64,000 bases of DNA from Escherichia coli (lineage in GTDB: Bacteria > Pseudomonadota > Gammaproteobacteria > Enterobacterales > Enterobacteriaceae): assembly GCF_003991155.1 (NCBI RefSeq), contig NZ_CP031294.1; one strand, given 5' to 3'. Positions within the stretch are counted from its first letter, which is position 1, and each line of letters begins with the position of its first letter. The position numbers and the translations under genes are program-made. This document shows positions 1,546 to 64,000 of this stretch, one piece after another. The notes beneath the pieces were generated by a model. The model did no database searches. It was not told where the DNA came from and worked only from the letters and a program-made list of their open reading frames with translations.

Positions 1546-1758
1546 TTAGTGTATTTTCTTCAACAGACCCCAAAGTGTTCCGGCTTTTGTAGTCAGTTTT
1601 CCTGTTTCTGGATCGTACATACGCCATTCACGCCGCTGGTGGACGATATACCCATCTTCACGTTCCAGACGCTCAAGAATGCCAGGCTGCTTGAAACCCT
1701 TAGCACGCCAGTAGCCGCTTGTTTTCTCGATTTCCAGACCTGCCAGTGTTAATGCCAT
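1546..1758 (-). CDS. Hypothetical protein
   Basis: 70-aa ORF abutting the downstream gene (shared coordinate 1758); no recognisable motif. Confidence 0.3.
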   Translation of the reverse strand: MALTLAGLEIEKTSGYWRAKGFKQPGILERLEREDGYIVHQRREWRMYDPETGKLTTKAGTLWGLLKKIH

Positions 1759-2093
1759 TATCCAACCTCCTTGCAGTCATCGAAAAGGTAGCTTTGCTGA
1801 GAAGCGTGAACGCCATAGAAGCCCTTGTATTTGTTGTATACGAAGTGGTCTTCTCCGACGCCGGTTAATTTGCCATTACGATTTGTGAGATATGGGGATG
1901 ACAACACTCGATCGTCACGCACAACATAGAACTGGTCGCCGCTGTCTACGACCATCGCTCCATATGGTGCTTTTATGACGTCGGTAAGAGCGCCATTCTT
2001 AACGTCGGCTACAGACATTTCACACTGATAAACAGTGGTGTCGGCTACAACGATCGAAGAAAGGAACAACAGCGCGAATGGGATGGCCTTCAT
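1758..2093 (-). CDS. Hypothetical secreted protein
   Basis: N-terminal signal-peptide-like stretch MKAIPFALLFLSSIVVA. Confidence 0.45.
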   Translation of the reverse strand: MKAIPFALLFLSSIVVADTTVYQCEMSVADVKNGALTDVIKAPYGAMVVDSGDQFYVVRDDRVLSSPYLTNRNGKLTGVGEDHFVYNKYKGFYGVHASQQSYLFDDCKEVG

Positions 2094-2308
2094 GCTGCCA
2101 CCTCTTTGATTACATCAAATGCTGAATTAAATACGAGCACGATAGCCAAAGCGTTTATGACTACGTCGTGCACCGGGGAAAAGACTTTACGAATGACACC
2201 AGTGAAAATGCAGTCGATGACAAAAGCTATTGAAACGATGAGTAACAAGTATTCAATAAAAATCTTCATGATAGGTAGATACTAACTTATATAAATTTTA
2301 CTGTAAAC

Positions 2309-2584
2309 TCACTCAAAAGTGCTGATGCTTAAAATACGCTCAAGATGTTCGGCATCTTCATCACTGATTTGTTGAGTCTCTTCTACGTACCAACAGTTGC
2401 CGTTATGCCAACAAACACCATCATCATCAACCATCACTGAATCAGCGTCATGACCTGTATATTCAACGAGAATACGCTGGATCAGCGCGTCAGTTTCTTC
2501 GTCGTTAAGGCCATCGGCTTTGACCATAAAAAGCGGAAACACGTCATAGACAGTGCTGGTAACGATTCGAACTAAAACTCTCAT
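2309..2584 (-). CDS. Hypothetical protein
   Basis: 91-aa acidic ORF in the minus-strand gene run. Confidence 0.35.
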   Translation of the reverse strand: MRVLVRIVTSTVYDVFPLFMVKADGLNDEETDALIQRILVEYTGHDADSVMVDDDGVCWHNGNCWYVEETQQISDEDAEHLERILSISTFE

Positions 2585-2639
2585 GTGTTTTTCCTTTTGT
2601 GGTTAGTGTTTACTTATTTTGTTAGTTATGAATAGGCGA

Positions 2640-3065
2640 TCAATCTTCTTGTTTAGGGAAAAACTGTTCAATAACTCTGTCAACGGCTGTGTCTATATGG
2701 AGTAGATGCCACACAACCATATCTTTGCTTCCCATGCCTTGTGTGAATATCACGTCATACTTACGCCATGCGCAGTGGAACCAATATGCTGAGTCATCAA
2801 TTGGTAAATCCTCTCCCGCCTCTTTGAAGTATTTCAGCAGCATTGCCTGCTCTGCCGTTGGCGTTGGACCTATTTCCTGAGCGTACATACGGATGAATCG
2901 CTGCCAGTCTGTCTCGTCGGGGGTTGGATCTGGTGGGGTCATTTCTGCGATAGCGTTTCGTAGCTGATGCGCCCAATCAGGTTCAGGAAAGCCTTTTGCT
3001 ACTTCATCATCAATAACATCCAGAGCCACGTTTGCGGCATCGTAGAGTTTCTTAATAACTGTCAT
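2640..3065 (-). CDS. Hypothetical protein
   Basis: 141-aa ORF preceded by an AAGGA-type RBS and the conserved palindromic upstream motif at 3077-3100. Confidence 0.45.
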   Translation of the reverse strand: MTVIKKLYDAANVALDVIDDEVAKGFPEPDWAHQLRNAIAEMTPPDPTPDETDWQRFIRMYAQEIGPTPTAEQAMLLKYFKEAGEDLPIDDSAYWFHCAWRKYDVIFTQGMGSKDMVVWHLLHIDTAVDRVIEQFFPKQED

Positions 3066-3110
3066 GTTTTCTTATCCTTTTAAACAAATTGTTTTCTTAA
3101 TAAGATAATT

Positions 3111-3140
3111 GCGATAAAAAAGGCGTCCAACTGGACGCCT
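3111..3140 (-). terminator. Rho-independent terminator (minus strand)
   Basis: Hairpin AGGCGTCC-AACT-GGACGCCT followed on the minus strand by a T-run (plus-strand AAAAA at 3116-3120). Confidence 0.5.
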
Positions 3141-3156
3141 GAACTTTTTAGGGGAG

Positions 3157-3987
3157 TTATTTCACTGTAATGAAAGGAGTGTTAGCCCCTTGAGTCATGT
3201 ACTGCGGTAACTGGCCATTCCATTTATTGATGGCTTCCAGTTCCATAACGTTCGGGTTTTGACGCAGAGCTTCACCGCGCAGACGAATGGCGTCCGCTTC
3301 TGCTTGCGCACGAGCACGGATAGCATCAGCTTCACCATTAGCCTGTTCACGTAGCATATTCGCCTCAGCTTTACGTTGTTCAACTTCCTGCTGACGTTGC
3401 AGAGTACGCTGGTTAGCCGTTACTTTGGCGTTAATAGATTCAATGACAGTTTTTGGGTAATCAGGCTTTCCAACCCATGACAGGCTCAGTACCTCAATAC
3501 CAACCGGAGACATCTCTTTCTGAATATCTTTCAGTGCGTTGTCCAGCAATTGTGCCTTACCACCGTCGATAAATGAGTCAGTGGTCATACGGCTGGCCAA
3601 ACGGTTTAGAGAGTCGGCAATTTTCTGACGCAGATCTGATTCGGTGATATCGTCTACGCCTTTGCGATAGGTCTGGAACACCGTCGTTACCTTGTCACGA
3701 TTAACCAGATACGCAACGCCAATTTTGTGACCAATAGCAGTACCGTCACTCATCTGGAATGTGAACGGCTCGTCGTAGGTCTTCATTTGTTTGAAGGTCG
3801 GGAATACGTAAAGTTCGGTGTTAAGACCTGTCCATTGGCGACCAACGCCAACCACTTCACCAATCCCTTTGTCTTCACCTAATTTGTTTACTTTGATGCC
3901 AACGTATCCAGGCTCCACGCGATCGCAGCCAGTAAGACCCATTGTGCAAATAGCCGCCAGAGCAACTGCAAGTAAACCTTTCTTCAT
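3157..3987 (-). CDS. SPFH/band-7 (HflK/YqiK-like) lipoprotein
   Basis: Signal peptide with lipobox LTGC; C-terminal Ala/Glu/Arg/Gln-rich coiled region typical of the SPFH family. Confidence 0.55.
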   Translation of the reverse strand: MKKGLLAVALAAICTMGLTGCDRVEPGYVGIKVNKLGEDKGIGEVVGVGRQWTGLNTELYVFPTFKQMKTYDEPFTFQMSDGTAIGHKIGVAYLVNRDKVTTVFQTYRKGVDDITESDLRQKIADSLNRLASRMTTDSFIDGGKAQLLDNALKDIQKEMSPVGIEVLSLSWVGKPDYPKTVIESINAKVTANQRTLQRQQEVEQRKAEANMLREQANGEADAIRARAQAEADAIRLRGEALRQNPNVMELEAINKWNGQLPQYMTQGANTPFITVK

Positions 3988-3990
3988 TAC

Positions 3991-4191
3991 TTATTTCCCC
4001 TTTGCTTTGATTAATGAGTTGATAAACTTACGACCAGCAATAAGACCGATTACAGGAGCACCAAAACCAACGATAACTCCAAACATGACGGCTAAATCAC
4101 TCTTGGTAGAAATCAGCGACGGAACCAGTAAACCGTAGATGAGAGCCACTGAAAGGCCTGTGGCTACTGCCAATAGATAGATTTTGATCAT
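3991..4191 (-). CDS. Small integral membrane protein (possible NfeD-like partner of the SPFH protein)
   Basis: 66 aa with two hydrophobic helices; stop lies 4 nt before the SPFH start. Confidence 0.4.
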   Translation of the reverse strand: MIKIYLLAVATGLSVALIYGLLVPSLISTKSDLAVMFGVIVGFGAPVIGLIAGRKFINSLIKAKGK

Positions 4192-4251
4192 GTGTTTTCC
4201 TATGTGGTTGTTATGCGAAAATAATAAGTAAGTGCTTATATATTTTCAAGA

Positions 4252-4279
4252 GATAAAAAAGGCGTCCTGTGGACGCCTT
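4252..4279 (-). terminator. Rho-independent terminator (minus strand)
   Basis: Hairpin GGCGTCC-TGT-GGACGCC with a T-run on the minus strand (plus-strand AAAAAA at 4255-4260). Confidence 0.5.
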
Positions 4280-4283
4280 GTGT

Positions 4284-5357
4284 TTACTCTTCTACTGACT
4301 CGGTGGGGTTGTCTTTTGCTCTTCGGTCGTCGATTGCCTGCAAAGCCGCAATGATTTCAGCCAGTGGCTTCTCCCGATACATCTCGACGATCTGCGATTT
4401 GGTGTATTTCTTGTCACCAATTTCAACTCGCCCGCTGGCGTTCTTTGGCAGGTATCCTTCTTCCAGCATGTACTCGACGAGCGATTCGATAACGTCGAGG
4501 CCACGAGTAGGATCGAAGTAGAATTTCCAGGTGCATTTGCCATACGGTGGTGCAACTTTGTTTTTGATGCATTCTGCGCCTACGTCCTGGCCGATCTTCT
4601 CTTTACCATCCTTCATCACCGATGCACCAAGACGGATACGTACAGAAGCGTAGAACTTCGGTGAATCTCCACCTGGCGACGTAGTAGGGTCGCCAAACAT
4701 TACACCGATTTTTGTGCGAACCTGATTCAAGAAGATGATGCAGGCGTTGTATTTGCGTGCCCACAAAGCCAGAGTAGGGAAGTTCGCACTCGTCGCACGA
4801 GCCAGTGCCGTATTGTCGTTCATGTTTAGCTGATCTTTGTCTTTGGCAGTGCCTTCAGCCATCTTTTCGAACTTCTCGGCTTTGGAGTTCGGAACCATAG
4901 ACGCAAGAGAGTCAGCCACGATACAGATTGGTGCTGATTCGGGGATAAGCTCTTCATCACGAACCAATTTAAGTATTGTGCCGATCAACTCTACAGAGTC
5001 TTCGAAGGTATCTGGCTGCTTGTATACCCACTGACCGTCATCCTCATCTGCGTTCAGGCCATTGGCGACAGCCAGGCCAACGTCAAAACTGTTTTCATGA
5101 TCGAGGAATACCGCCAGACCATCTTGTTTTTGAGCGGAGATCATCGCTGCTGTTGCAAGGAACGTTTTCCCTGCACTTGGAGGACCGAATACTTCGACGA
5201 TACGACCACAAGGGAAGCCGCCATCGTAACGACCAGAAATAGCTTTGTTTAACGGTGGAAAGCCTGTATCAATCCAATGAGTTACTTTCTGAATTTCGTC
5301 GTTGCTACCGATTTTCTTTTTCAGAGCAAGTGCCAGTGCGGATTTTCCTTTTGCCAT
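4284..5357 (-). CDS. RecA-family recombinase (RecA/UvsX-like)
   Basis: Walker A GPPSAGKT, Walker B-like ICIVADS, RecA-like core of 357 aa. Confidence 0.65.
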   Translation of the reverse strand: MAKGKSALALALKKKIGSNDEIQKVTHWIDTGFPPLNKAISGRYDGGFPCGRIVEVFGPPSAGKTFLATAAMISAQKQDGLAVFLDHENSFDVGLAVANGLNADEDDGQWVYKQPDTFEDSVELIGTILKLVRDEELIPESAPICIVADSLASMVPNSKAEKFEKMAEGTAKDKDQLNMNDNTALARATSANFPTLALWARKYNACIIFLNQVRTKIGVMFGDPTTSPGGDSPKFYASVRIRLGASVMKDGKEKIGQDVGAECIKNKVAPPYGKCTWKFYFDPTRGLDVIESLVEYMLEEGYLPKNASGRVEIGDKKYTKSQIVEMYREKPLAEIIAALQAIDDRRAKDNPTESVEE

Positions 5358-5359
5358 GA

Positions 5360-5632
5360 TCAGGCTCCTTTTGTTTCGTTGATTCGTTTTAAAGCGGCGG
5401 ATTCATCGAATACAATCGCATCGTGGTTAAGGAGTCTGGATACACGAGCGAGGATTTTTACGACCTGCTCGCTGACTAATCCAAACTCGCGATCTGTCGC
5501 TTTCATTCCGGCAGCGCCTAGAATTGACGGCAGTGCGATGACAGCGTACTCACCGTGATAAAAGACAATCTCTTTTGCCAGTTGGGCAGGGGTGGTTGTA
5601 GCGCCATTGATAATCGATTTAAGCATTAGCAA
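5360..5632 (-). CDS. Hypothetical protein
   Basis: 90-aa ORF tightly packed between the recombinase and flap endonuclease genes. Confidence 0.35.
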   Translation of the reverse strand: MLMLKSIINGATTTPAQLAKEIVFYHGEYAVIALPSILGAAGMKATDREFGLVSEQVVKILARVSRLLNHDAIVFDESAALKRINETKGA

Positions 5633-6621
5633 TACCTTTCGAATGGAAGAACAAACACTTCAAGGTCTTCAAGGAACGAACGGAAATTCAGCTCGTAGCA
5701 CAGTTGCTCGAATGCTTTCACGTCACGATTGCCTTTGATTGTTTCGATTTCGGTAGGCGGAAACTTCGTCTCAATCAGGTTCATTAGCGTGATGTTTCTC
5801 TTGAACGCTTCGAGCATTCGACAGCCTGTTTTCTCGTTGAAGGCATTCTTCGCTAGTTTGTTGAAGGCGGTCTTATGACGCCCTTTATTAACCACGATTG
5901 AGCCGTCGTTGATGCCGCGTACCATCGTTGCGACACTTCCCCATTCATGCAGCAGCTCTTTCGCACCGCCAGCACCAATGCCACCAACACCGCTAATGTT
6001 GTCCGAGTTATCGCCTTGTAATGCTTTTGCTTCCAAAAATGCGCGAGGCGTGGCGAATCCTGTCAGCTCCGCAAATTGCTCAAAATTAACCTGCTTGTTT
6101 TTGGCGTCTTCACGCAGGCTTACCCAGCTTACGTTTTCACGAACTAACTGAAGCCAGTCGCTATCGCCTGTTAACAGATAGATGTGTTCAACGGTTGGCT
6201 GCGGTGCCATGCGGGATACCAGCAGCCCGGCCAGATCATCCGCTTCTGCATCTTTTGCAATGAGTTGGGTAACTCCAAGCGCGGTCATCATTTTGAGGAT
6301 GTATGGCTTCTGGATAGCAAAGCCTTCCTTCATCTTTTTCATATCAGGATCGTCGTCGCGATTTGCTTTGTAGTCCGGGTAAAAGTCGCGACGCTTGTCA
6401 CTAAATCCATCCCAAAGAATCATAGGTCGGGCATGGAGGATGGAGGCATAACGACGGACGTTCTTAACAAAGCCGAAAGCAGCCTGTACTTCCATTTCGC
6501 CGTTGTGCAATTTGTCAGATTGTTGGTGGTAATAACCCAGGCTATTGCCATCTACGAAGAGATAATTCACCGGTACATTCCTTCCAAAAAGTAAGGCGTC
6601 CGTAGACGCCTTACTGGTCAC
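5626..6621 (-). CDS. Flap endonuclease / 5'-3' exonuclease (RNase H-like, FEN family)
   Basis: Acidic catalytic clusters (AKDAEADD, TGDSDWLQL) and an H3TH-like glycine-rich segment (NISGVGGIGAGGAKELL). Confidence 0.7.
   Translation of the reverse strand: MTSKASTDALLFGRNVPVNYLFVDGNSLGYYHQQSDKLHNGEMEVQAAFGFVKNVRRYASILHARPMILWDGFSDKRRDFYPDYKANRDDDPDMKKMKEGFAIQKPYILKMMTALGVTQLIAKDAEADDLAGLLVSRMAPQPTVEHIYLLTGDSDWLQLVRENVSWVSLREDAKNKQVNFEQFAELTGFATPRAFLEAKALQGDNSDNISGVGGIGAGGAKELLHEWGSVATMVRGINDGSIVVNKGRHKTAFNKLAKNAFNEKTGCRMLEAFKRNITLMNLIETKFPPTEIETIKGNRDVKAFEQLCYELNFRSFLEDLEVFVLPFERYC
6584..6612 (-). terminator. Rho-independent terminator (minus strand)
   Basis: Hairpin AAGGCGTC-CGTA-GACGCCTT with a minus-strand T-run (plus-strand CCAAAAAG). 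Confidence 0.5.
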
Positions 6622-14291: not shown

Positions 14292-16400
14292 TCACTTCAA
14301 AATGATACGAGATAGTTCAGTAACTACAGATGAACCAAGACTATCAACGCTCGTTACCAGGGCATGGTTTGCGTAAAATCTCTCCGGTGCGTCAGTCATG
14401 ATGCCAATTGCCATCAAATCAATGTCAGTCTGCGTTTCAATTTGCTTCGCAACCGAACGCAAATGAGCGTCAAAACCTCTCCCAACAGCCCACGGCGCGC
14501 CATCGCTTAGAACAAGCATGATCTTCTTGTCCTCCATGCGACCAGAAAATAACGATGCAAGGCTGGCTATGCTTTCACCATCCACGTTATTAAGAAGTGG
14601 GAATGTGTAGCCTACGCACCCCATACGTGAGCGAACTTCGCGAGAATTGGCCTTTTCATTCCAATTTTTGATGATAGGTAGCATTAAAGATTCAAAGCGA
14701 GAGAACTCATACTTGATTGCCTTAAGCTCTCCTGCTGCCATATGACTACCAAATGTAGTGAAGCCGGTGATAATGTTGGGAACATTTATTCGATCAAGGG
14801 CATCGGCGATGGTATATGCACTTGCAAGAGCCAATTGTATCGTTATACCACTCATTGAACCTGATAAATCAATCACTTGTTGAACACAGGCGTTAACGGC
14901 TTTAGATTCTTCTTTTTTACGAAACACGCGATCATCATTCATTGCTAATCTGTAGATACTAGAACCATGAATGCGCCCCCGACGCTGGCCCGGTATAAAC
15001 TGAACTCTGTTTCTGCTTGCTATTGCTCGCTCCAGGTCTTTTGCCAGCGTCGACGAAACACCTGACGAAAGATGCTTTTCAATATATTTGTCGAAGAGCT
15101 GGTTGCCTTCAGGAACGATGCGATAGCGGCTGATTGGATATCCTCCTAAATCAATATCGGAGAATGTTTTAATAAGCCGTTTGATATGGGCTTCTGCCTG
15201 ATCAATCGAGCCGATGAAGTCGTATGAGCGATTGTATGGCCTGTATTCGCTTTTCGAGCTTTCTGTTAACTCGCTTTTAATCGTTTCGGATAGAGCATCT
15301 TCTGTCATACCTCCGACTTCATCTTCTATGCTATCCAGCTCCTCTAAAGCCTCTTCCAGACTCATTTTTGACGGAGTTGGAATATCTGAAGAGCCGTCTT
15401 CTGTCGTTTTTCTTTTTTCGTGGTCAGCGGTTAATGATTCTGACGCCGCGTTATCAGAAGCATCAGAATCTGATACCTCTTTATCATTTTCTGTATCATC
15501 GAATATTGTTTCTGATGATTCAGAATTATCTGAATCATCACTGTCGTTATTATCATGTTTGTGCTTACTGTGTGGTTCTGATTTGATAGATTTGTGATTA
15601 TCTAACATTGAGGGTGTCTCATGATCTTCGTTATCTTCATTGTTTTCTCTAGAGGCATCCGTCTGGTCAGCGTCTGAAGGATCGGAAGTTTTTCCCGGAG
15701 CTGACTCCTTACCTTTGCTTTCACTTTCAGTGTCTTTGAGGATCTTAGCTATGGTCGCAGCCACCTTTACACAATCATCGGTGCAAGACATGTTACGCAC
15801 GGCCACATCGATACCATGTTCTTTTAATAATGAAATTGGTTTCTCAATGACAGGCCAATATTCATCCATGAAATCTACGAACGGTGCTTGGCCATCCCAG
15901 GCTCTTACAACCGGACAGAGAAAGAAGTTTAGAAAAAGCGCACGCTGATCTTTGCCACAATAAGCAATAGCCTCTGAAGCCTTTGGTTTAAAGACTTTTT
16001 CGATTATAAGGCGCTGAGTTGCCATCAGATTACGTCTTGTTCCGTTAAAGACCTGACCCATTTTTCGCTCGATGAACACGTCTTCTAAGGCATTCCATAG
16101 CGACCAGGAAGGAACGCGTCCTTTTTCTCTCATTTTGTTGGACACACGAATATCGGTAAACAAAATGTGAGCAACCTCATGATCGAGAAATCCGCGCACA
16201 GCATTCATCAATGCCGGTGTTGCGTTATCCGGGATTGATGGGATGTTTACGAGAATTGGCTCTCCATCATCGTTATAGCGTACATAAGCGTCGTCCCCTC
16301 GTTCTGCAACAGGGATGTTTTTACCTGAAAGGAGAGCGACTACTCGTTTTACACTGTCACGGAAGTCCTGAACCTCTTTGATGGAACGTTTTTTAGACAT
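14292..16400 (-). CDS. CobT-like protein with C-terminal von Willebrand factor A domain and long acidic low-complexity insert
   Basis: 702 aa; ~150-aa Asp/Glu/Ser-rich central segment; C-terminal VWA-like region (DLSGSMSG resembling a MIDAS DxSxS motif); adjacent to the AAA+ partner. Confidence 0.6.
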   Translation of the reverse strand: MSKKRSIKEVQDFRDSVKRVVALLSGKNIPVAERGDDAYVRYNDDGEPILVNIPSIPDNATPALMNAVRGFLDHEVAHILFTDIRVSNKMREKGRVPSWSLWNALEDVFIERKMGQVFNGTRRNLMATQRLIIEKVFKPKASEAIAYCGKDQRALFLNFFLCPVVRAWDGQAPFVDFMDEYWPVIEKPISLLKEHGIDVAVRNMSCTDDCVKVAATIAKILKDTESESKGKESAPGKTSDPSDADQTDASRENNEDNEDHETPSMLDNHKSIKSEPHSKHKHDNNDSDDSDNSESSETIFDDTENDKEVSDSDASDNAASESLTADHEKRKTTEDGSSDIPTPSKMSLEEALEELDSIEDEVGGMTEDALSETIKSELTESSKSEYRPYNRSYDFIGSIDQAEAHIKRLIKTFSDIDLGGYPISRYRIVPEGNQLFDKYIEKHLSSGVSSTLAKDLERAIASRNRVQFIPGQRRGRIHGSSIYRLAMNDDRVFRKKEESKAVNACVQQVIDLSGSMSGITIQLALASAYTIADALDRINVPNIITGFTTFGSHMAAGELKAIKYEFSRFESLMLPIIKNWNEKANSREVRSRMGCVGYTFPLLNNVDGESIASLASLFSGRMEDKKIMLVLSDGAPWAVGRGFDAHLRSVAKQIETQTDIDLMAIGIMTDAPERFYANHALVTSVDSLGSSVVTELSRIILK

Positions 16401-16498
16401 GGCTAATCCTTTGTTATGAAAACAAATTATTTACTAGTGTGTTTAATGTAGCACTGCGCGAACAGGGAACTAAGCCATTCGCGCAGGGAGAAGAGGGG

Positions 16499-16711
16499 TT
16501 AACAGATTCTGACGGCTAAAGACCCGGAGCCGGTATTGAGAAGCGTGAAGCGTTTGTTGTTAAGTTCGAATATAAAGCCAGTTGTGTCATTCACACCAAC
16601 CTGAATCTGCTCATTCGGTAGATCGGTGAGGATGTCAGCTACACACTCAACAGCTAATTTTTGTACGTGTCCGATCTCAAGAGCGATTAGGCTGGAAATA
16701 GTGGTGTTCAT
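16499..16711 (-). CDS. Hypothetical protein
   Basis: 70-aa ORF; weak support. Confidence 0.3.
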   Translation of the reverse strand: MNTTISSLIALEIGHVQKLAVECVADILTDLPNEQIQVGVNDTTGFIFELNNKRFTLLNTGSGSLAVRIC

Positions 16712-16888
16712 TCAATCAATCCATTCTAACTTATACTATGGTAAGGAATACTACTAAAATTTGTATCAATACTGAATACATTCATATCATATGCAAGTTA
16801 CTTTTCTTACCTATTTTGGGCTAATTTTTCTCCGTGCAATGGCCTTTAACCGGTCTTTTAAGTGCCTATCGAAAAAAATGATAATAGC

Positions 16889-16916
16889 TTTACAACCCTA
16901 ACCTTTGATGTAATAT
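16889..16916 (+). promoter_or_regulatory. Candidate sigma70-type promoter for the HTH regulator gene
   Basis: TTTACA, 16-nt spacer, TAATAT, about 45 nt upstream of the ATG at 16963. Confidence 0.4.
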
Positions 16917-16962
16917 CGGTAAGCACTTACCAGAGAGAATTGAACGCGCAAAGGTTGTAACC

Positions 16963-17349
16963 ATGTCTGATAACAAGATTGAATTTATAGAAAGTCGCTA
17001 CGCTGCTTTTATCGCAGGGTTGATTGAATCCTCACCTATGAGCCAGGCCCAGATAGCCAAAACAATTGGGTATAAAAACGCCAACAACCTTTCTTTAATT
17101 AAAAGCGGCAAAATTCCTTTGCCTATCGATAAGGTTCGTCCGCTGGCGCTGGCACTGGGCATTGAGCCAAGTCGTCTTATGATGATGGTGCTGGAAGAAC
17201 GCCAACCCGAACTCGCAGCATTTTTATACAAAGAAGGCACTGCTCCTCTTAACGAGGACGAAAAACAGGTTCTTGCTGCATATAACGAGCGATTCGGTAA
17301 AGAGAAAGGCGCATCACAAAAGGTTGTTGAGGCCATAAAGTCTCTATGA
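16963..17349 (+). CDS. HTH transcriptional regulator (XRE/Cro-like)
   Basis: Helix-turn-helix signature SQAQIAKTIGYKNANNLSLIKSGK; 128 aa; convergent with the recombinase gene. Confidence 0.6.
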   Translation: MSDNKIEFIESRYAAFIAGLIESSPMSQAQIAKTIGYKNANNLSLIKSGKIPLPIDKVRPLALALGIEPSRLMMMVLEERQPELAAFLYKEGTAPLNEDEKQVLAAYNERFGKEKGASQKVVEAIKSL

Positions 17350-29200: not shown

Positions 29201-30541
29201 TTAGGTAACGTCTAAGATTCGCTCAATGAAGCGCATTTGTTCGAGGTTTTGTTTAACGCGAATGCTGATCCCTCCCTGCTGGTTACGCGAACCAGCAAAG
29301 TAGAGACGAGCCTCTCCTTTCGCTTCTTCTTCTTCGGTTTTGTTGATCGTTATTACCAGGTCAGCAATACGTACTTTTTCGATGTTGTCGGCAGCGTGCA
29401 TCATTGTGGCAACTTCTGACGCGCCACCTTCACGGTTTGTTTGCGATGCTGTGATACCAGCAACGTTGTGTTTGTCATAAAGAGCACGTAAATCGGTGTA
29501 GATACTACGAATGTTGGCGCGATCATCACGAAGGTCATAACTGGCACGCATCAAATCTGCGTAGTCGACAACAAGCATGTCAGGCACCATGCCATTGGCT
29601 TTCATGCTGTTAAGCATACGGTCCAGATCTGCCGGTGACATACTTCCTGACGGACGCTCAACAACCCACAAACTACCAATCCCCTTAGTGGCTCCCAACT
29701 CTGCCAACTTACGATGAACTTCATCGCGCCGTTCCACCAGCTTGGACATTTCCGTCTCCGACAATCTTGCATCAAAGCGGTCGGACAAAATGTTGGTGTG
29801 AACCTCCAGCGAGAGATACAGAACATTGTAGCCAGCAAGCGTTGCGTTTATGGAAAACTCACCCATTGCGGTCGATTTACCGGATTTAGCGAACCCCATG
29901 AAAAGCACCATTTCGCGCTTTGCCCAGCCTTTTTGGTACAGCAACCTATCGAGAAGAGGGAGTCCTGTTGTAATACTGTTTGGTACATACTCCTCTGAAG
30001 CCTCATATTCACGCGCTTTCAATCGCTCACTTGCGGAGGTGTAGTAGTCATAGATTCCGGTCGCTTCGTTCGATCCAATCTGCTGAACCTTGGCCATGAT
30101 TGCCATCGCCCCCTGAAAGTCGCCTTTCTCTTTCAGTTCAGCAGCCTTAATCAGAGCATCATCAAACGCTACGCTTTTTGCGAAGGTTGATACCTGGTCA
30201 ACCATGTACGAGGTATCGGACAATTTTTCTGCAAGGATGCGCTTAAACGCAGCAACAACATCGGCGAATAGTTCCTCACGGATAGTCTTATCGCGTTTCG
30301 CACGCTTAAGCATATCCAGAATTGCAGATGAAGAGGGCGCGCTCTTGTACATACGGTAATAGCCCGAAACCATATTAACCAATATGGCATTGGCCGCATT
30401 GGCAAATTGGCTAGGCACAACCAGATCTCCCGCACGAGTAAGAAACTCGTGATCACGACAAAAATATGCCGTCAGTCTGTTCTGGAAATCTTCATCAAAC
30501 TCTTCGGACAGCCCGCGTCCTGTATGGCAAAGTTCGGTCAT
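29201..30541 (-). CDS. Replicative DNA helicase (DnaB-like)
   Basis: Walker A GFAKSGKST, Walker B LVVDYADLM, RecA-like C-terminal domain. Confidence 0.75.
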   Translation of the reverse strand: MTELCHTGRGLSEEFDEDFQNRLTAYFCRDHEFLTRAGDLVVPSQFANAANAILVNMVSGYYRMYKSAPSSSAILDMLKRAKRDKTIREELFADVVAAFKRILAEKLSDTSYMVDQVSTFAKSVAFDDALIKAAELKEKGDFQGAMAIMAKVQQIGSNEATGIYDYYTSASERLKAREYEASEEYVPNSITTGLPLLDRLLYQKGWAKREMVLFMGFAKSGKSTAMGEFSINATLAGYNVLYLSLEVHTNILSDRFDARLSETEMSKLVERRDEVHRKLAELGATKGIGSLWVVERPSGSMSPADLDRMLNSMKANGMVPDMLVVDYADLMRASYDLRDDRANIRSIYTDLRALYDKHNVAGITASQTNREGGASEVATMMHAADNIEKVRIADLVITINKTEEEEAKGEARLYFAGSRNQQGGISIRVKQNLEQMRFIERILDVT

Positions 30542-30584
30542 GTGCTTTCCTTTGTTTTTTAAACAAATTGTTTTCTAGTATTAG

Positions 30585-31503: not shown

Positions 31504-33207
31504 TTAATTATTAAGCAATCTGCTCACACGTAGTTTGTTAAGACTTGATCTAGAGGCCAGTTTCGTTAATGCACCTATTGCTTTATTCGTGATTTTTTGC
31601 TGTTCTTCTGTTAGTTCTTGCATACTTTTGAATCTGAGCAACCCCTTTCTCACTAAATCCAAAGCATCCTGATTGCGGGATAATATCCACTTTAAATAAT
31701 CATCTTCAGAGAAACTGTTAAGATATGCTATGTCACTATGATTAAATTTGCCTTCAATTATTTTGTATAAAACATTCTCTAAATTAGTCTCTTCAGGCTT
31801 CTTATCCATCAATTTTTTTTGAATTAGCAGACCTAACGTTTCGTTACCAAATATCTCTACATACAAATTCCGAAAAGCAGTATAAGCATCATCTTGGCTA
31901 ACAAAGGCATCTGCATATGCCTCTATATAACTATCACAATCAATCTCCAATCTATTTAAGATATCAATCAAGCCTATGAAGTGAGCAACAGGTATGTGTG
32001 AAAGATTGTCGTTAATTACACATTTTATCTTAGAAATAAACTCAGATTCATTGTCCTTGAATGAGTCACTAAAAATATCCCAAACATTGTTAACCTCACA
32101 TAAAGCCTTGTGTTCTTTATATTGTTTATTTTTTTCTTCTATTATACCTCGAATATTGCTTTCAGTAGAAAGATAACCATTCTTGAGATAAAAATCTATG
32201 TCATCATCGAAAGCAATTTCCGCTCGTTCATAAATAATATCAAGACTATTAATAAATGAATATACAGAATCATCCTTTTTATCATCTAACATGTAATCAA
32301 ATACATGTATGTTTTTAATTGATTCTTTAAACAAGGCATAATCAACACCTGGAACACCAGAATAGTAAACCACTGAAAACAGAACCAATCTATTGATAAA
32401 ACTTTCTCTAACCTTATCCTCTGCCAAGCTTAGCTCATTCCTAAGATTAACCAGAGATGTTTTTATTTTATTTAATATACGGATATTTTTAATGCCTAAG
32501 TCATTTGCTAAGACTTTTAACAAAAGAAAATCAGAATCAGTTTCATAAAAAACTTTACGTAAGTTCTTCTCAGGCGTAGGATCGTATTTTATTTCGACAT
32601 CAATTACTTTTTCTCTGTACTCTAAAAACTGTTTTTTTGCAGTTTCATCATGTAAATTATCTTCATTTAAAATTAGAACAACTTTGCAACCTTTTCTTCT
32701 TGCTAATTCATCAATTACCCCCATAATTTCTTTAACTTCTAGCGAATTACCTTTTCTTTCAACATCATCAATACAAACCAAATAATTATTAACAAATTTA
32801 TACTCAAGAGATGACAGCAGGTTATCTGTTTTGAACCCAAAAAAATCGTTCTTTCCGAAATGTATTAAAAATTTTGACAAGGAGTTGTATTTCAACCATC
32901 CCCAAAACCCATTTCTATAACGAATCATAGTTCGATCCGTTTCAGATAAAATTAGTTCTTTATATTTCTTTTCATTAATTGGTGTGGCACAATGATAAAG
33001 AGTTTTTTTAATATCACCAATAGAGTTAACCCCAAACAAAGAAACATACGAATATGCATTAAAATCTAATCCTTCAGAATGCTTAGTATAAAAACTATTC
33101 CAATAATGAGTTTTACCAACGCCCCAATCTCCTTTTATGACGGCAACCCGATGATCTGAAACTAGAAAATTTTTTAGAAATGATTCTATCGATTCCATTA
33201 GTATCAA
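31504..33207 (-). CDS. AT-rich accessory gene: P-loop NTPase, KAP-family-like
   Basis: Walker A GDWGVGKTH near the N-terminus, Walker B LVCIDDVER; 567 aa; markedly lower GC than neighbours. Confidence 0.5.
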   Translation of the reverse strand: MILMESIESFLKNFLVSDHRVAVIKGDWGVGKTHYWNSFYTKHSEGLDFNAYSYVSLFGVNSIGDIKKTLYHCATPINEKKYKELILSETDRTMIRYRNGFWGWLKYNSLSKFLIHFGKNDFFGFKTDNLLSSLEYKFVNNYLVCIDDVERKGNSLEVKEIMGVIDELARRKGCKVVLILNEDNLHDETAKKQFLEYREKVIDVEIKYDPTPEKNLRKVFYETDSDFLLLKVLANDLGIKNIRILNKIKTSLVNLRNELSLAEDKVRESFINRLVLFSVVYYSGVPGVDYALFKESIKNIHVFDYMLDDKKDDSVYSFINSLDIIYERAEIAFDDDIDFYLKNGYLSTESNIRGIIEEKNKQYKEHKALCEVNNVWDIFSDSFKDNESEFISKIKCVINDNLSHIPVAHFIGLIDILNRLEIDCDSYIEAYADAFVSQDDAYTAFRNLYVEIFGNETLGLLIQKKLMDKKPEETNLENVLYKIIEGKFNHSDIAYLNSFSEDDYLKWILSRNQDALDLVRKGLLRFKSMQELTEEQQKITNKAIGALTKLASRSSLNKLRVSRLLNN

Positions 33208-33249
33208 TCCTTTAATTCATATATTGGGCGTAACAAACGCCCAATATAA

Positions 33250-33609
33250 TCAACCTTTCTTCATCAACTCTCGTTTAATTTCATCGGTACGCATCGTAAC
33301 GTCGGCAGCTGTGATCGCCTCGTTAAGCTTCACGATGTCCTCGATTTCCTGCGGTGACTTCTCTGCCAGATGGAAAATGGCTGCTCGAATCACGTCAGAA
33401 CGAGTGAACTTCTCGAAGCGAGGGATGAACTTCATCATCTCCAGCAGTTCGAAGTATTCGTCTTCCAGTGACATTGTGCGGCTTTTAATTTTCTCTTTGC
33501 CACGAGTCGGGCGTCCCTGTGGTCTGACTGGTTGGCGCAAAGGAGTTGTGTTCTTAGCCGGTGCATCAGGCTCTTTGCGCTTTGCTAGGTCACCCATTTT
33601 CATGGACAT
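33250..33609 (-). CDS. Small basic protein downstream of parA (possible ParG/RHH-like partition adaptor)
   Basis: 119 aa, translationally coupled to parA (shared coordinate 33609); role inferred from position only. Confidence 0.35.
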   Translation of the reverse strand: MSMKMGDLAKRKEPDAPAKNTTPLRQPVRPQGRPTRGKEKIKSRTMSLEDEYFELLEMMKFIPRFEKFTRSDVIRAAIFHLAEKSPQEIEDIVKLNEAITAADVTMRTDEIKRELMKKG

Positions 33610-34277
33610 TATTCTTCTTCCTCCAGACTCAACAGATAATCTACAAATTCTTCAAACTCGGCTTCCGCCTTTTTGTCGCGCTCGTTACCGGTCATTTCAA
33701 AGATAGAACGACCAGACTCTTCCGCATCATCATAGACGTTGCGGTTATATAGATTGACTGGCGCAGACTCGATGCCAAACGTCTCAACAATCTCTTTAGC
33801 CGCCAGAATGCGAGACACTTGTGATGGCAAAGCCGGGCACTGGTTCATGACCGCGCGGACCTTCACTTTATCGTTTACATTACGAACATTGTCGATAATA
33901 GGATCAATGTCACGTAAAGATTTCAAATCACGACGCTTAGGACGCAGCGGGATAATGATAACGTCAGCCATCAGCATCGCTTGTCGCTGAATTTCGGAGT
34001 CGAAGCCACCAGCATCTACCACTACAAACTCAGCTCTACCCTGAAGCGATTTTAGGTGCTTAATGATGTCATCCTGAACGTATGCAAAAGGAATCAGCTC
34101 AAGGTCTTCGTTCTGTCGACGGTCTTCACACCAGCTCGTTGTCGTGCGCTGAATATCTATATCGGTAATATAAACCTTCTTCTTCTTTTTGACTTTCAGG
34201 CAAACGGCAATTTGCTGGGCAACGGTGGATTTGCCAGGCCCGCCCTTTGTGCCGCCAACCACAAAGATCTTGGTCAT
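33609..34277 (-). CDS. parA: ParA/Soj-family partition ATPase
   Basis: Deviant Walker A GGTKGGPGKST at the N-terminus, ParA-like Walker A' and B segments (VVVDAGG). Confidence 0.65.
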   Translation of the reverse strand: MTKIFVVGGTKGGPGKSTVAQQIAVCLKVKKKKKVYITDIDIQRTTTSWCEDRRQNEDLELIPFAYVQDDIIKHLKSLQGRAEFVVVDAGGFDSEIQRQAMLMADVIIIPLRPKRRDLKSLRDIDPIIDNVRNVNDKVKVRAVMNQCPALPSQVSRILAAKEIVETFGIESAPVNLYNRNVYDDAEESGRSIFEMTGNERDKKAEAEFEEFVDYLLSLEEEE

Positions 34278-34453
34278 TGGAGAGTTCCCTTTGCGTATAT
34301 AATTATCGTCTGAAACAACTTGTTTTCTTATATGTGATATAGCCTAAATGCCTACGGCTGTGGTGTAAAGGTTAAATGGTAGGTGCTGCCTTAGAATTTT
34401 TAGGCGAGAATTAATGGCTGTTAACAAAAAAGGCGACCAAAGTCGCCTGATTT

Positions 34454-35206
34454 TTAATCTTTTAGGTATAAACCTACTGGAGTTCTTGTTTTGCGGGAGA
34501 TGATAAGTACGATAAATTTCTGAACGTTAACTTGCACTTTGTTTGGGAGCCAAGAGCTTAACTCTGCATCAAGCAACAATCCTCTGTTCCACGGCAAAAA
34601 TCCGGTTTCTTTCCCCATCCCGTACTCACCTAACACATCTTCGAACGTTTCTGTTTTGGCATTGTATATACGCACATCGCCGGTTCGCATGAGAGGCCCT
34701 GCCCAGATCTTAGCACCAGGAATGGTTTGTGTATCGTCGCAGACTAAATGCTCATACCAATGAAGAAGAAAGAGATAGGTACGGTGACACAATCCTCGCT
34801 GACGACGCTCTCTGACAGTTTCGACACCAGCTACCTGGTAACATTCGATCTCATTACCGTCTTCAACAAAACTATATTCACGCAGAGCTATCCTACCAGC
34901 GATCGTATTTTTGTTTTCGTCCAGAAGCCCGGACTGGAGCACCTCTTTGATAATCTCTTCTTCAGGGGCATCTTCATCCGCTCGATCTAAGATGAATTCG
35001 CTCAGGTCGCCTTGGTCGCGCGCACCTACACGTTCCATAGAGACATACAGGCAAATGTCATCTTCTGGTTCAATGATTTCAATTTCTGAGATTTTATAGA
35101 GGTAGGCTTCATTGATAAGAAAGCCAAAACGAACAACACGAGTCTCCCCTTTATGAGGAAACTCGCTTAGATCTTTTGAATATGCGCTATCTAGTGTAGG
35201 AGCCAT
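34454..35206 (-). CDS. Hypothetical protein
   Basis: 250-aa ORF. Confidence 0.45.
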   Translation of the reverse strand: MAPTLDSAYSKDLSEFPHKGETRVVRFGFLINEAYLYKISEIEIIEPEDDICLYVSMERVGARDQGDLSEFILDRADEDAPEEEIIKEVLQSGLLDENKNTIAGRIALREYSFVEDGNEIECYQVAGVETVRERRQRGLCHRTYLFLLHWYEHLVCDDTQTIPGAKIWAGPLMRTGDVRIYNAKTETFEDVLGEYGMGKETGFLPWNRGLLLDAELSSWLPNKVQVNVQKFIVLIISRKTRTPVGLYLKD

Positions 35207-54951: not shown

Positions 54952-55458
54952 TTAATTCAATAAATAGCCAGCAAATTCAACAGGAATGCCTGCTTCTATT
55001 AATGCCCCATCATTTTTGGGATAAATGATTGGCATCGCCATCGGTCGTACAAGTCGAAAATAAACACCACCAGATTCCGTTTCCTCTACTGGAAACATCT
55101 CAATGATTTTATGGGCTTTCTCAACCGTCGTAGTAATTGACGAACCACGCACAATGATTGTGAATGATTCGTGATAAAAGCCCTGTAGCTCATGATCGAT
55201 GCTGATGCCGGTATTTGGGTTAATAAGCAGGACGCCAGATTTCACATTGGCAGGCAAGTAGTGACAGAAAATGTCAGTCCCGACCGTGCCAATCTTTGCC
55301 TTCTGCATCAAACTTGCAAACGCTTCAATAAACACATTAACCTCTCGTAAATCCGGCTTTTCTGGCAGCCTCAAGAATCGCTTCTGAGAACTGCTTCTCG
55401 CTAATTTCCACCGCTCTTTCCAGAAAGTGTGGCCCAACACGGGGTTTAACACCGGCAA
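54952..55458 (-). CDS. Head-tail joining / tail terminator candidate
   Basis: Position only; real start is probably the internal Met (~55308), since the long ORF overlaps the upstream gene by ~120 nt. Confidence 0.35.
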   Translation of the reverse strand: MPVLNPVLGHTFWKERWKLARSSSQKRFLRLPEKPDLREVNVFIEAFASLMQKAKIGTVGTDIFCHYLPANVKSGVLLINPNTGISIDHELQGFYHESFTIIVRGSSITTTVEKAHKIIEMFPVEETESGGVYFRLVRPMAMPIIYPKNDGALIEAGIPVEFAGYLLN

Positions 55459-55810
55459 TTGGTGGGTTTGTCACGTTCTTCATTCGAGAAAGATAACCGA
55501 GTCGGTATTTACCCAGCTCCATGTACTTAGCATAGTCACCTACTTCTACGCCCGGATGCCCCTGACGTGGTTTTGCTCCAGACACAGAAAGCTCAATACG
55601 CAGCCCTGAATAACCTTCTTTAATCACCCTGGCAAAGATGGCTGTCTCCAGAGATCCGGTTTCCAGCGGGGCCATTGCACGGCTGAGACGCTCAACCAAA
55701 CGCGCCAGCTTTTCCATGTCCCGGATAAGATATCGCTTAAATGCTTTCTGGCTGTTGTTGAGTCGATTCCCCGCACGTTTGAACTGATGCGCATCGTATT
55801 TCAGACCCAT
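55337..55810 (-). CDS. Head-tail connector candidate
   Basis: 157-aa ORF within the head-tail joining block; position only. Confidence 0.35.
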   Translation of the reverse strand: MGLKYDAHQFKRAGNRLNNSQKAFKRYLIRDMEKLARLVERLSRAMAPLETGSLETAIFARVIKEGYSGLRIELSVSGAKPRQGHPGVEVGDYAKYMELGKYRLGYLSRMKNVTNPPIAGVKPRVGPHFLERAVEISEKQFSEAILEAARKAGFTRG

Positions 55811-63830: not shown

Positions 63831-64000
63831 AGATCCCTCTAAAACACACAGAGCGCGTCCATGCGCTCTAAAACAACTTGTTTACTGCATCTGCTAACCA
63901 ACTTGTTTTCTGGGGTGTTTAATTAGGTCTGGCATGTCTTACGAAGCCTGCTTCCGTATATATTTAATAAGTTACTTATTATTTATATATACAGATGCAG

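What the first reader, a model, noticed from the sequence alone, without database searches (positions are those of the whole stretch)
3077..3100. Conserved palindromic upstream element TTTTAAACAA(A/C)TTGTTTTCT recurring in front of several operon-first genes
The identical 20-mer occurs at 3077-3096 and 30555-30574 (before the helicase gene). Close variants lie at 34311-34330 (before parA), 63867-63886 with a half-site at 63896-63913 (before the terminase small subunit) and 16418-16437 (before the CobT-like gene). Each sits 12-40 nt upstream of a start codon and has dyad symmetry AAACAA-n-TTGTTT. This is consistent with a shared operator for a phage-plasmid repressor or activator.
Basis: seen in the sequence. 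Interest (0 to 1): 0.55.

Follow-up and report, generated by a model that had tools for sequence, protein, structure and literature searches.

The report
Shared operator motif of phage-plasmid operons
A 13-base palindrome (AAACAA-N-TTGTTT) sits just upstream of the ribosome-binding site of five operons in this SSU5-type phage-plasmid, and of about twenty across the whole element; it is conserved in relatives from E. coli to Yersinia and is most likely the binding site through which one element-encoded repressor keeps these genes quiet.

Summary
The window holds exactly six copies at five loci, all intergenic and all upstream of minus-strand genes: an unnamed operon, cobT-like, the DnaB-like helicase, parA and terS. 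Chance expectation is about 0.01.

The window is an SSU5-like phage-plasmid, 99% identical to E. phage CMS-2020a. Complete relatives carry 15-20 copies each at orthologous promoters, and the site stays conserved where its flanks diverge. In the fullest cassettes it lies 11-12 nt downstream of a GATAAT -10-like box and abuts the Shine-Dalgarno. Some cassettes add an inverted copy over the -35 region, 51 bp away.

The RNA hairpin is negligible and shows no compensatory changes. No Rfam family and no paper describes the motif.

Two outgroup relatives (Acinetobacter, Moellerella) lack the motif. The only plausible regulator found with the same presence/absence pattern is an FljA-family protein encoded outside the window. 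Its predicted fold is a tandem Sm/Hfq-like domain.

Best reading: operator of an element-wide negative regulon, probably bound by this protein. Whether binding is to DNA or to the mRNA leader is unresolved. The window's HTH regulator is not supported as the binder. Binding itself is untested.

The parts
3078..3097 (-). Class-A site 1: AGAAAACAATTTGTTTAAAA, ending 12 nt upstream of the ATG (3065) of ORF 2640-3065, the first gene of a small operon running to about 1546
   Evidence: Exact 20-mer; 29.4 bits with the matrix trained on other genomes; context; conserved in Cyrano and two IMG/VR relatives with a variable centre base
16416..16435 (-). Class-A site 2 (degenerate): AGTAAATAATTTGTTTTCAT, 15 nt upstream of the ATG (16400) of the CobT-like ORF 14292-16400
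   Evidence: Core with 1 mismatch; 23.2 bits read on the + strand, 16.5 on the - strand; the orthologous position holds a consensus site in SSU5, pJN2-26 and pMT1
30557..30576 (-). Class-A site 3: AGAAAACAATTTGTTTAAAA, 15 nt upstream of the ATG (30541) of the DnaB-like helicase ORF 29201-30541
   Evidence: Exact 20-mer; 29.4 bits; an island of conservation in 17 distinct orthologous upstream regions, with centre base T/A/C
34309..34328 (-). Class-A site 4: AGAAAACAAGTTGTTTCAGA, 31 nt upstream of the ATG (34277) of parA (33609-34277)
   Evidence: 27.2 bits; conserved in 18 distinct orthologous regions. In the two most distant it reads GAAAACATTTTGTTTTC and GAAAACATCTTGTTTTC, so only the central 3 nt vary
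63867..63886 (-). Class-A site 5 (terS-proximal): AGTAAACAAGTTGTTTTAGA, 36 nt upstream of the terS ATG (63830)
   Evidence: 25.4 bits; present in all relatives examined
63892..63911 (-). Class-A site 6 (terS-distal): AGAAAACAAGTTGGTTAGCA, 25 bp centre to centre from site 5
   Evidence: 21.3 bits; exactly this 25-bp unit is missing in the Klebsiella-type relatives
3121..3140 (-). Intrinsic terminator of the upstream gene. It leaves only 55 nt for a promoter, the site and the SD before the ATG at 3065
   Evidence: 8-bp stem, 6 G-C pairs, T run
34431..34448 (-). Intrinsic terminator upstream of the parA control region
63849..63870 (-). Conserved terminator-like hairpin (AGAGCGC-loop-GCGCTCT followed by GTGTGTTTT) between site 5 and the terS SD
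   Evidence: stem conserved (one G-U change in two relatives) and loop variable among relatives
33250..34277 (-). parA plus a 119-aa basic protein: an operon led by site 4, transcribed at 50-89 units in a Cyrano lysogen against a median of 9.8
   Evidence: expression table of PMC9928086
1546..3065 (-). Operon led by site 1. It includes a secreted 111-aa protein (1758-2093) and a 70-aa protein with no recognised domain (1546-1758) whose presence/absence pattern also matches the motif

Best explanation
The motif is the operator of an element-wide negative regulon of SSU5-type phage-plasmids.

Mechanism proposed: a repressor encoded by the element binds the element AGAAAACAA-N-TTGTTTA. In the fullest cassettes this lies 11-12 nt downstream of a GATAAT-type -10 box, roughly +7 to +19 if transcription starts where expected, and directly upstream of the Shine-Dalgarno. 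Some cassettes carry a second, inverted copy over the -35 region. Occupancy blocks expression of the operon behind it. The operons affected include replication genes (helicase, nrdB), cobT, parA, the terS-led structural operon and many small accessory genes, so they stay silent or throttled while the element lives as a plasmid.

The most likely binder is the FljA-family protein (Pfam PF03614, predicted tandem Sm/Hfq-like fold) encoded outside the window (CYRAN_114 / SSU5_121).

Shown here: the sites, their placement, their conservation and the co-distribution with that gene. Inferred: binding, the sign of regulation, the transcription start, and whether the protein reads duplex DNA or the mRNA leader.

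My own estimates: about 0.7 for an operator of an element-encoded negative regulator, and about 0.5 for the FljA-family protein as binder.
For: Non-random and intergenic.

Whole genomes carry 15-20 sites each: Cyrano 18, SSU5 20, pJN2-26 17, pCAV1752-111 15. Most lie upstream of genes.

Orthologous sites persist while the flanks and the centre base change. This holds even at 68% helicase amino-acid identity (pCAV) and in the decayed plasmid pMT1.

Cassette anatomy was read from about 40 aligned sites. It runs: T-rich -35 region, GCCTTwT, a 16-nt spacer in all, GATAAT/TATTAT/GAAAAT, 11-12 nt, the site, then AGGAG.

Inverted upstream copies keep a fixed 19 nt to the -10 box although the spacer sequence differs. 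They lie 51 bp, about 5 helical turns, from the downstream copy.

At site 1 a terminator leaves only 55 nt before the ATG, so any promoter there must overlap the site.

In a Cyrano lysogen the motif-led genes sit at background (5.7-25 against a median of 9.8). Only parA is moderately expressed, at 50 (PMC9928086 S1 table).

Binder: the motif is present in five lineages (window/Cyrano, SSU5, pJN2-26, pCAV, pMT1) and absent from the Acinetobacter and Moellerella relatives. The FljA-family gene shows the same 7/7 pattern. Only 4 of 150 Cyrano ORFs do so. The other three are an Ig-like structural protein, a doubtful 56-aa ORF and a secreted protein.

FljA-type proteins are reported to stop fliC mRNA translation (PMC2652032, citing Bonifield and Hughes 2003 and Yamamoto and Kutsukake 2006).
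Against: No binding, footprint, mapped transcription start or reporter data exist.

A perfect 6-N-6 dyad, and inverted copies upstream of the -35 that would not be in the mRNA, point to a symmetric duplex-DNA binder. An Sm-like protein is expected to bind single-stranded RNA.

The FljA-like gene has no copy of the motif upstream of it.

The Salmonella and E. coli fliC leaders do not match the motif significantly (matrix score -4.1 bits with shuffle p 0.15, and p 0.46).

The co-distribution rests on seven genomes with only two independent absences. A 70-aa protein with no recognised domain (window 1546-1758) shares the pattern.

The strict sigma-70 scan finds no minus-strand promoter at four of the five window loci, and only a weak one about 70 nt upstream of the site at parA. 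The position relative to the -10 box is therefore read from better cassettes elsewhere in the genome.

Nearly all lytic genes are silent in the lysogen, so the silence of the motif-led genes does not discriminate.
Confidence: 0.5

Rival explanations
1. The motif is an operator for a conventional dimeric DNA-binding repressor of the element other than the FljA-family protein. Candidates are the 70-aa protein at 1546-1758 and a small protein too divergent for tblastn to trace. It would act purely on transcription by occluding the -35 region and the start site.
For: A perfect dyad over 50+ sites with single-sided, uncompensated deviations. Inverted upstream copies sit at a fixed distance from the -10 box, 51 bp from the downstream copy. 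The site lies at the predicted start region. The 70-aa protein is encoded in an operon led by site 1 and has the right presence/absence pattern.
Against: No conserved protein with a recognisable DNA-binding domain shares the motif's distribution. The 70-aa protein has no Pfam, NCBIfam or PDB match and is near background in the lysogen (13 against a median of 9.8). Under this reading, the FljA-family gene matching the pattern 7/7 is a coincidence of about 3% (4 of 150 ORFs).
Confidence: 0.27
2. The motif marks dispersed centromere/operator sites for the small basic protein encoded after parA (33250-33609), acting as partition adaptor and global silencer in one. Recalled precedents are omega of pSM19035, KorB of RK2 and SopB of N15.
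For: A site lies in the parA control region in every relative that has this par operon. There is no tandem-repeat centromere around the operon. The protein's central segment KSRTMS(L/I)EDE...FTRSDVIRAAI is invariant at about 50% overall identity. The operon is expressed in the lysogen.
Against: The presence/absence patterns do not match. pMT1 keeps the sites but lacks this protein, having a type Ia ParAB instead. Moellerella has a homologue of the protein (45% over the core) but no sites, not even upstream of its parA. My reading of a ribbon-helix-helix fold is unconfirmed: no Pfam hit, AF2 pLDDT 65, no fold matches.
Confidence: 0.08
3. The motif acts only as RNA, either as a small leader hairpin or riboregulator needing no dedicated protein, or as a target of a host factor such as Hfq. 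Alternatively it is a passive part of a promoter cassette spread by recombination.
For: It lies in the sense strand directly upstream of the SD at most sites, 42 forward to 13 reverse. It combines an A-rich and a U-rich tract. The cassettes upstream of many small ORFs recall the mobile promoter cassettes of T4-type phages (recalled from memory).
Against: The hairpin is worth -0.7 kcal/mol, no better than shuffles. Deviations break pairs and are not compensated; G-to-A changes giving C.A occur in forward sites in SSU5, pJN2-26 and pCAV. There is no Rfam match. In the window the five loci share only the 20-nt element, so this is not copy-and-paste of a cassette. The reverse copies lie upstream of the -35 region.
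Confidence: 0.08
4. The motif is the operator of the HTH regulator encoded in the window (16963-17349).
For: The gene is an XRE-type HTH protein (phrog_8). It is expressed 10-fold over background in the lysogen. It lies about 500 nt from the cobT site.
Against: It is absent from SSU5, which has 20 sites. It is present in Moellerella and Acinetobacter, which have none. Its own divergent promoter region carries GGTAAGTGCTTACC-type palindromes and no class-A site.
Confidence: 0.03

Closest known systems
C1 operators of phage-plasmid P1 (recalled from memory)
   Same: One repressor and many operators scattered over a roughly 100-kb plasmid-prophage. Each operator sits at the promoter of a separate operon, so a single factor holds many functions off.
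   Different: P1 operators are asymmetric 17-mers (ATTGCTCTAATAAATTT) bound by a monomeric HTH-type C1. Here the core is a 13-bp dyad of unrelated sequence, no C1 homologue was seen, and the structural (terS) operon is also directly preceded by sites.
FljA and the fliC leader in Salmonella flagellar phase variation
   Same: The candidate binder is a full-length member of the same Pfam family (PF03614). In both cases the target lies between the promoter and the Shine-Dalgarno of the controlled gene. FljA-type proteins are reported to prevent fliC mRNA translation (PMC2652032).
   Different: FljA is known for one host target, whereas here there are about 20 targets on the element itself. The phage-plasmid proteins are only 39-41% identical to chromosomal FljA-type proteins. 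The fliC leaders do not match the motif significantly. A dyad with extra copies upstream of the -35 region is not what an RNA-only mechanism predicts.
KorB OB sites of IncP plasmids, omega of pSM19035 and dispersed SopB sites of N15 (recalled from memory)
   Same: Short palindromic or repeated sites scattered at promoters of a plasmid or phage-plasmid, through which a maintenance protein also sets transcription globally.
   Different: The sequence differs from the OB site TTTAGCSGCTAAA. The partition-adaptor candidate fails the presence/absence test.
T4 RegA translational operators and T4-type early promoter cassettes, PeSLs (recalled from memory)
   Same: A single phage factor acts on AU-rich leader sequences of many early mRNAs (RegA). 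Repeated promoter-plus-leader cassettes precede many small accessory ORFs (PeSLs).
   Different: No RegA homologue was looked for systematically. RegA sites overlap the AUG and are not dyads. PeSLs carry a stable stem-loop, which is absent here.

Membership tests
Dispersed operator regulon of a prophage/plasmid repressor (generic kind) | Many copies of one short sequence, confined to intergenic control regions | tested here: met
   6 of 6 sites in the window lie in 9.8% non-ORF sequence, and 12-16 of 15-20 do so in four complete relatives; chance expectation is 0.01-0.5
Dispersed operator regulon of a prophage/plasmid repressor (generic kind) | Sites conserved at orthologous promoters while the flanks diverge | tested here: met
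   Alignments of helicase, parA and terS upstream regions; pCAV and pMT1
Dispersed operator regulon of a prophage/plasmid repressor (generic kind) | Sites overlap core promoter elements or the transcription start | tested here: inconclusive
   In the fullest cassettes the site is 11-12 nt past a GATAAT box, and a second copy overlaps the -35 region. The strict sigma-70 scan finds no minus-strand promoter at four window loci and only a weak one about 70 nt upstream at parA. No transcription start data exist.
Dispersed operator regulon of a prophage/plasmid repressor (generic kind) | A cognate repressor binds the sites and lowers expression | not testable with these tools
   Only indirect evidence: motif-led genes are at background in the lysogen, and the motif co-occurs with the FljA-family gene
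FljA-type leader operator | An FljA-family (PF03614) protein is encoded by the same replicon | tested here: met
   CYRAN_114 has E 1e-80 over the full model. Homologues are present in every motif-bearing relative and in the 99%-identical CP053388.1, outside the window.
FljA-type leader operator | The target lies in the transcribed leader upstream of the SD | tested here: inconclusive
   This holds if transcription starts about 7 nt past the GATAAT box. About a quarter of the sites (13 of 55) are inverted, and several of these lie upstream of the -35 region.
FljA-type leader operator | Sequence resemblance to the known target, the fliC leader | tested here: not met
   The best matrix score in the Salmonella fliC leader is -4.1 bits (shuffle p 0.15); E. 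coli gives p 0.46 (sequences from PMC5056187)
FljA-type leader operator | The protein binds the RNA and blocks translation | not testable with these tools
   The Sm/Hfq-like fold prediction fits RNA binding, but no assay was possible
Structured cis-regulatory RNA (Rfam-type element) | Match to a curated family, or a stable structure supported by covariation | tested here: not met
   Only three tRNAs reach gathering score in the window. The hairpin is -0.7 kcal/mol with z -0.5 to -0.9. Deviations are uncompensated.
ParB/KorB-type or type Ib centromere sites | The sites co-occur with the partition adaptor that binds them | tested here: not met
   pMT1 has the sites without the adaptor, and Moellerella has the adaptor without the sites
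ParB/KorB-type or type Ib centromere sites | A clustered repeat array next to the par operon | tested here: not met
   No tandem or clustered repeats flank 33100-34460

The most novel reading that the evidence does not exclude
The binder is the FljA-family protein, a tandem Hfq-like (Sm-fold) repressor, and it holds some twenty operons of a 100-kb phage-plasmid in check through one conserved leader/operator sequence. On this reading the FljA of Salmonella flagellar phase variation is a domesticated offshoot of a phage-plasmid global regulator. An Sm-fold protein would then be reading a dyad-symmetric site, possibly both as DNA and as RNA.
Probability: 0.35. Interest if true: 0.75.

Novelty: new member of a known kind. 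Interest (0 to 1): 0.5.

Why it matters
SSU5-type phage-plasmids are very common in clinical Enterobacteriaceae. More than 800 PLSDB plasmids carry the marker genes used here, and they include pHCM2 of S. Typhi and pMT1 of Y. pestis. Their lysis/plasmid-maintenance control is uncharacterised: I found no paper on it.

A single 13-bp site heading the replication, partition, cobT and packaging operons gives a direct experimental handle on that switch. It offers a defined operator for reporters, pull-downs and engineering. It also names a concrete candidate regulator whose family is so far known only for silencing one flagellin gene.

Tried and rejected
1. RNA hairpin or riboswitch reading. The folding energy equals that of shuffles, there is no Rfam hit and no compensatory changes were seen.

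2. The window's HTH regulator as binder. Its distribution is wrong and its own promoter carries a different palindrome.

3. LexA-like CYRAN_98 as an SOS-sensitive repressor. It is a HumD/UmuD homologue with no DNA-binding domain.

4. The ParA-adjacent protein as a ribbon-helix-helix adaptor binding the sites. There is no Pfam, PDB or fold support, and it fails the presence/absence test.

5. Homology between the motif and the fliC leader. It looked suggestive by eye (CCAATAA..CAAGTTGT..AAGGA) but is not significant.

6. Looking for the motif in unrelated phages so as to triangulate the binder. Every IMG/VR contig with several hits is SSU5-like, and single hits elsewhere are at chance level.

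7. Autoregulation logic. There is no site upstream of the FljA-like gene.

8. Strict sigma-70 scans at the window loci gave no minus-strand promoter, apart from one weak match about 70 nt upstream of the parA site.

9. CYRAN_61 (window 1758-2093) shares the distribution but has a signal peptide.

10. Reading Yamamoto and Kutsukake 2006 for the FljA site. The paper is not held in the library.

Full report
**What the window is.** The 64-kb window is an SSU5-type phage-plasmid. Region 2000-6000 is 99.0% identical to Escherichia phage CMS-2020a (CP053388.1), about 97% to phage Cyrano of E. coli LF82, and about 79% to Salmonella phage SSU5. Relative to the Cyrano record the window is reverse-complemented. 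It runs from repA (1-1056) to terS (63198-63830), and nearly all genes are on the minus strand.

**Checking the observation.** The exact 20-mer is at 3078-3097 and 30557-30576. Variants lie at 34309-34328, 63867-63886 and 63892-63911: five matches where shuffles give 0.01. The 13-nt core with one mismatch adds 16420-16432, making six against 0.51 expected.

A weight matrix trained only on SSU5, Klebsiella pJN2-26 and pCAV1752-111 recovers exactly these six sites at 21-29 bits. The shuffle maximum is 16.1, and the next real score is below 10. All six lie in the 9.8% of the window outside long ORFs (p about 9e-7).

In gene orientation the element reads AGAAAACAA-N-TTGTTTA. It ends 12-61 nt upstream of the start codons of ORF 2640-3065, the CobT-like gene, the DnaB-like helicase, parA and terS. 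Outside the element the five loci share no sequence.

**The element in whole genomes.** Complete relatives carry far more copies than the window. With at most one core mismatch there are 18 in Cyrano, 20 in SSU5, 17 in pJN2-26 and 15 in pCAV1752-111. Most lie in the part of the genome outside the window, a stretch of small ORFs each with its own control region.

A scan of IMG/VR with the 17-mer returned many contigs. Every contig with several hits is SSU5-like, and the single hits elsewhere have no homology. The motif is therefore a property of this group of elements.

Flanks are consistently asymmetric: AGA on one side, A(A/C)(G/A) on the other. 42 of 55 sites point the same way as the gene downstream.

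**Anatomy.** Aligning the sites shows a cassette:
- a T-rich -35 region (TTTTAC, TTTGAC, TTGGAC);
- a conserved GCCTTwT at the start of a 16-nt spacer;
- a -10-like GATAAT, TATTAT or GAAAAT;
- 11-12 nt, often AACaCCAAcAA;
- the site;
- then directly AGGAG and the ATG.

If transcription starts the usual distance past the -10 box, the dyad covers about +7 to +19.

About a quarter of the sites are inverted. Most of these lie immediately upstream of GCCTTwT, so that TTGTTTTCT runs into the -35 hexamer. Their distance to the -10 box is always 19 nt although the spacer sequences differ. Where both copies exist they are 51 bp apart.

In the window the cassettes are less canonical:
- At site 1 an intrinsic terminator (3121-3140) leaves 55 nt before the ATG, so any promoter must overlap the site.
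- parA also has a terminator upstream.
- terS has two direct copies 25 bp apart, followed by a conserved terminator-like hairpin.

The strict sigma-70 scan finds no minus-strand promoter at four of the five window loci, and only a weak match about 70 nt upstream of the site at parA. The -35 elements are poor, and the placement relative to the promoter is an inference from the better cassettes.

**Conservation.** In 17 distinct helicase upstream regions the site is an island of identity between variable flanks, with the centre base T, A or C. In 18 parA regions it is kept even in the two most distant lineages, where only the central three bases differ (AAACA-NNN-TGTTT). Upstream of terS, the Klebsiella type has lost exactly one 25-bp unit. 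The decayed Yersinia pestis plasmid pMT1 keeps the sites at terS, cobT and three other loci.

**DNA or RNA.** As RNA the dyad is worth -0.7 kcal/mol, no different from shuffles. Deviations are single-sided and include changes that would give C.A or U.U. No Rfam family matches. A self-sufficient RNA structure is therefore rejected.

The perfect dyad, and the inverted copies upstream of the -35 region at a fixed distance, argue for recognition of duplex DNA by a symmetric protein. The sense-strand bias and the position hard against the Shine-Dalgarno are what a leader-binding translational repressor would give. I cannot settle this.

**Expression.** The supplementary table of the LF82 prophage study (PMC9928086) gives RNA-seq values for every Cyrano gene in the lysogen. 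Against a median of 9.8, the motif-led genes score:

| Gene | Value |
|---|---|
| terS | 7.1 |
| cobT | 7.8 |
| CYRAN_58 | 5.7 |
| helicase | 21 |
| nrdB | 12.9 |
| small ORFs | 5.7-25 |
| parA | 50 |

This fits repression, with parA autoregulated to a working level. But almost all lytic genes are silent, so it is weak evidence.

**Who binds.**
- *HTH regulator in the window* (16963-17349, identical to CYRAN_45). It is absent from SSU5, which has 20 sites. Homologues are present in relatives that lack the motif. Its own promoter carries a different palindrome.
- *CYRAN_98.* It is a UmuD-type protein.
- *The 119-aa basic protein after parA.* Its position suggests a type Ib partition adaptor, and its central segment is invariant. 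However, no fold or family evidence supports a ribbon-helix-helix. It is missing from pMT1, which has the sites. It is present in Moellerella pW18-2-b, which has none.

The presence/absence test is the most informative result. The motif is present in five lineages and absent from the Acinetobacter (pORAB01-1) and Moellerella relatives. Of 150 Cyrano ORFs only four share that pattern:
- an Ig-like structural protein;
- a doubtful 56-aa ORF;
- a secreted 111-aa protein;
- the FljA-family protein CYRAN_114.

A 70-aa protein with no recognised domain (window 1546-1758) also fits when checked by hand.

Three points count against it:
- An Sm-fold protein is not expected to read a duplex dyad.
- There is no site upstream of its own gene.
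- The resemblance I thought I saw to the Salmonella fliC leader (sequence from PMC5056187) is not significant.

**Comparison with known systems.** In logic, the closest system is the C1 operator network of P1, where many dispersed operators serve one repressor on a plasmid-prophage. In candidate protein, the closest is FljA and the fliC leader. The defining features of each are listed in the membership table. The generic kind, a dispersed operator regulon, is met on sequence criteria. Membership of the FljA-operator type is open. The centromere and structured-RNA types are not met. I found no description of this motif or of SSU5-group regulation in the literature held.

**Verdict.** This is a real, conserved and previously undescribed operator-type motif that defines a regulon of about 20 control regions in SSU5-type phage-plasmids. 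Five of those regions, with six sites, are in the window. It most likely mediates repression by an element-encoded factor, with the FljA-family tandem-Sm protein as leading candidate at about 0.5. It is a new member of a known kind. Interest is moderate, and would rise markedly if the Sm-fold protein is shown to be the binder.

Noticed in passing
window about 2271, 4224, 7748, 14259, 20059, 22555, 26071, 31461, 41505, 48427, 54929, 60419, 63967 (genes on the minus strand): A second recurrent palindrome, (G)ATAAGTA-N2..6-TACTTAT. In gene orientation its right arm runs into a -10-like TAnnnT, for example ACTTACGAT or ACTTACTAT. Most copies are intergenic; the one at 60419 lies inside the portal-like ORF. 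It precedes the cobS, SSB, tail and tail-fibre genes and lies just upstream of the terS sites. It is present in all relatives, including those that lack the main motif, and its form changes by lineage: TAGGTAAGTACTTACCTA in pJN2-26, TAGTAAGCGCTTACTATAAT in Acinetobacter. It looks like a promoter class in which a palindrome replaces the -35, as in P1 late promoters (recalled from memory).
   Followed up: partly
window 63849-63870, minus strand: A terminator-like hairpin (AGAGCGC-loop-GCGCTCT followed by GTGTGTTTT) lies between the operator copies and the terS ribosome-binding site. Across relatives the stem is conserved (one G-U change in two of them) and the loop varies. This suggests that the 27-kb structural operon is also controlled by termination and antitermination.
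   Followed up: partly
outside the window: Cyrano 100780-101301 (L003:780-1301, minus); homologues in SSU5, pJN2-26, pCAV1752-111 and pMT1: The Pfam family 'repressor of phase-1 flagellin' (FljA, PF03614) models as two tandem Hfq-like Sm domains. In the collections searched it is found overwhelmingly on SSU5-type phage-plasmids (834 PLSDB records), with chromosomal flagellar FljA proteins only 39-41% identical.
   Followed up: partly
window 16712-16962: The divergent control region between the HTH regulator (16963-17349) and the small ORF 16499-16711 carries GGTAAG-TG-CTTACC and related half-sites. This is the same form as the second palindrome class in pJN2-26, so that regulator may act on (some of) those sites.
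   Followed up: partly
window 63867-63911, compared with L012, L046, L055, L095 and pJN2-26: The Klebsiella-type relatives lack exactly one 25-bp unit of the tandem operator pair upstream of terS. Copy number at this locus therefore varies by whole units.
   Followed up: yes
window 21565-21808, minus strand: Three tRNA genes in a row (Rfam RF00005); Cyrano annotates the homologous set as Asn, Thr and Ser.
   Followed up: no
window 4284-5357, compared with Cyrano 55065-57404: The RecA-like gene is 357 aa here and in SSU5, but the annotated Cyrano gene spans 2340 nt. Megablast splits the match into two pieces in Cyrano, PhiR41_1 and CP054387, which suggests an insertion (intein or mobile element) in those relatives.
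   Followed up: no
SSU5 90739-90754 and Cyrano 94604-94619 (outside the window): A copy of the motif on the opposite strand lies in a roughly 500-nt stretch that has no annotated gene in SSU5 (in Cyrano it falls within the annotated CYRAN_103), with a half-site just upstream. It might drive a small or antisense RNA.
   Followed up: no
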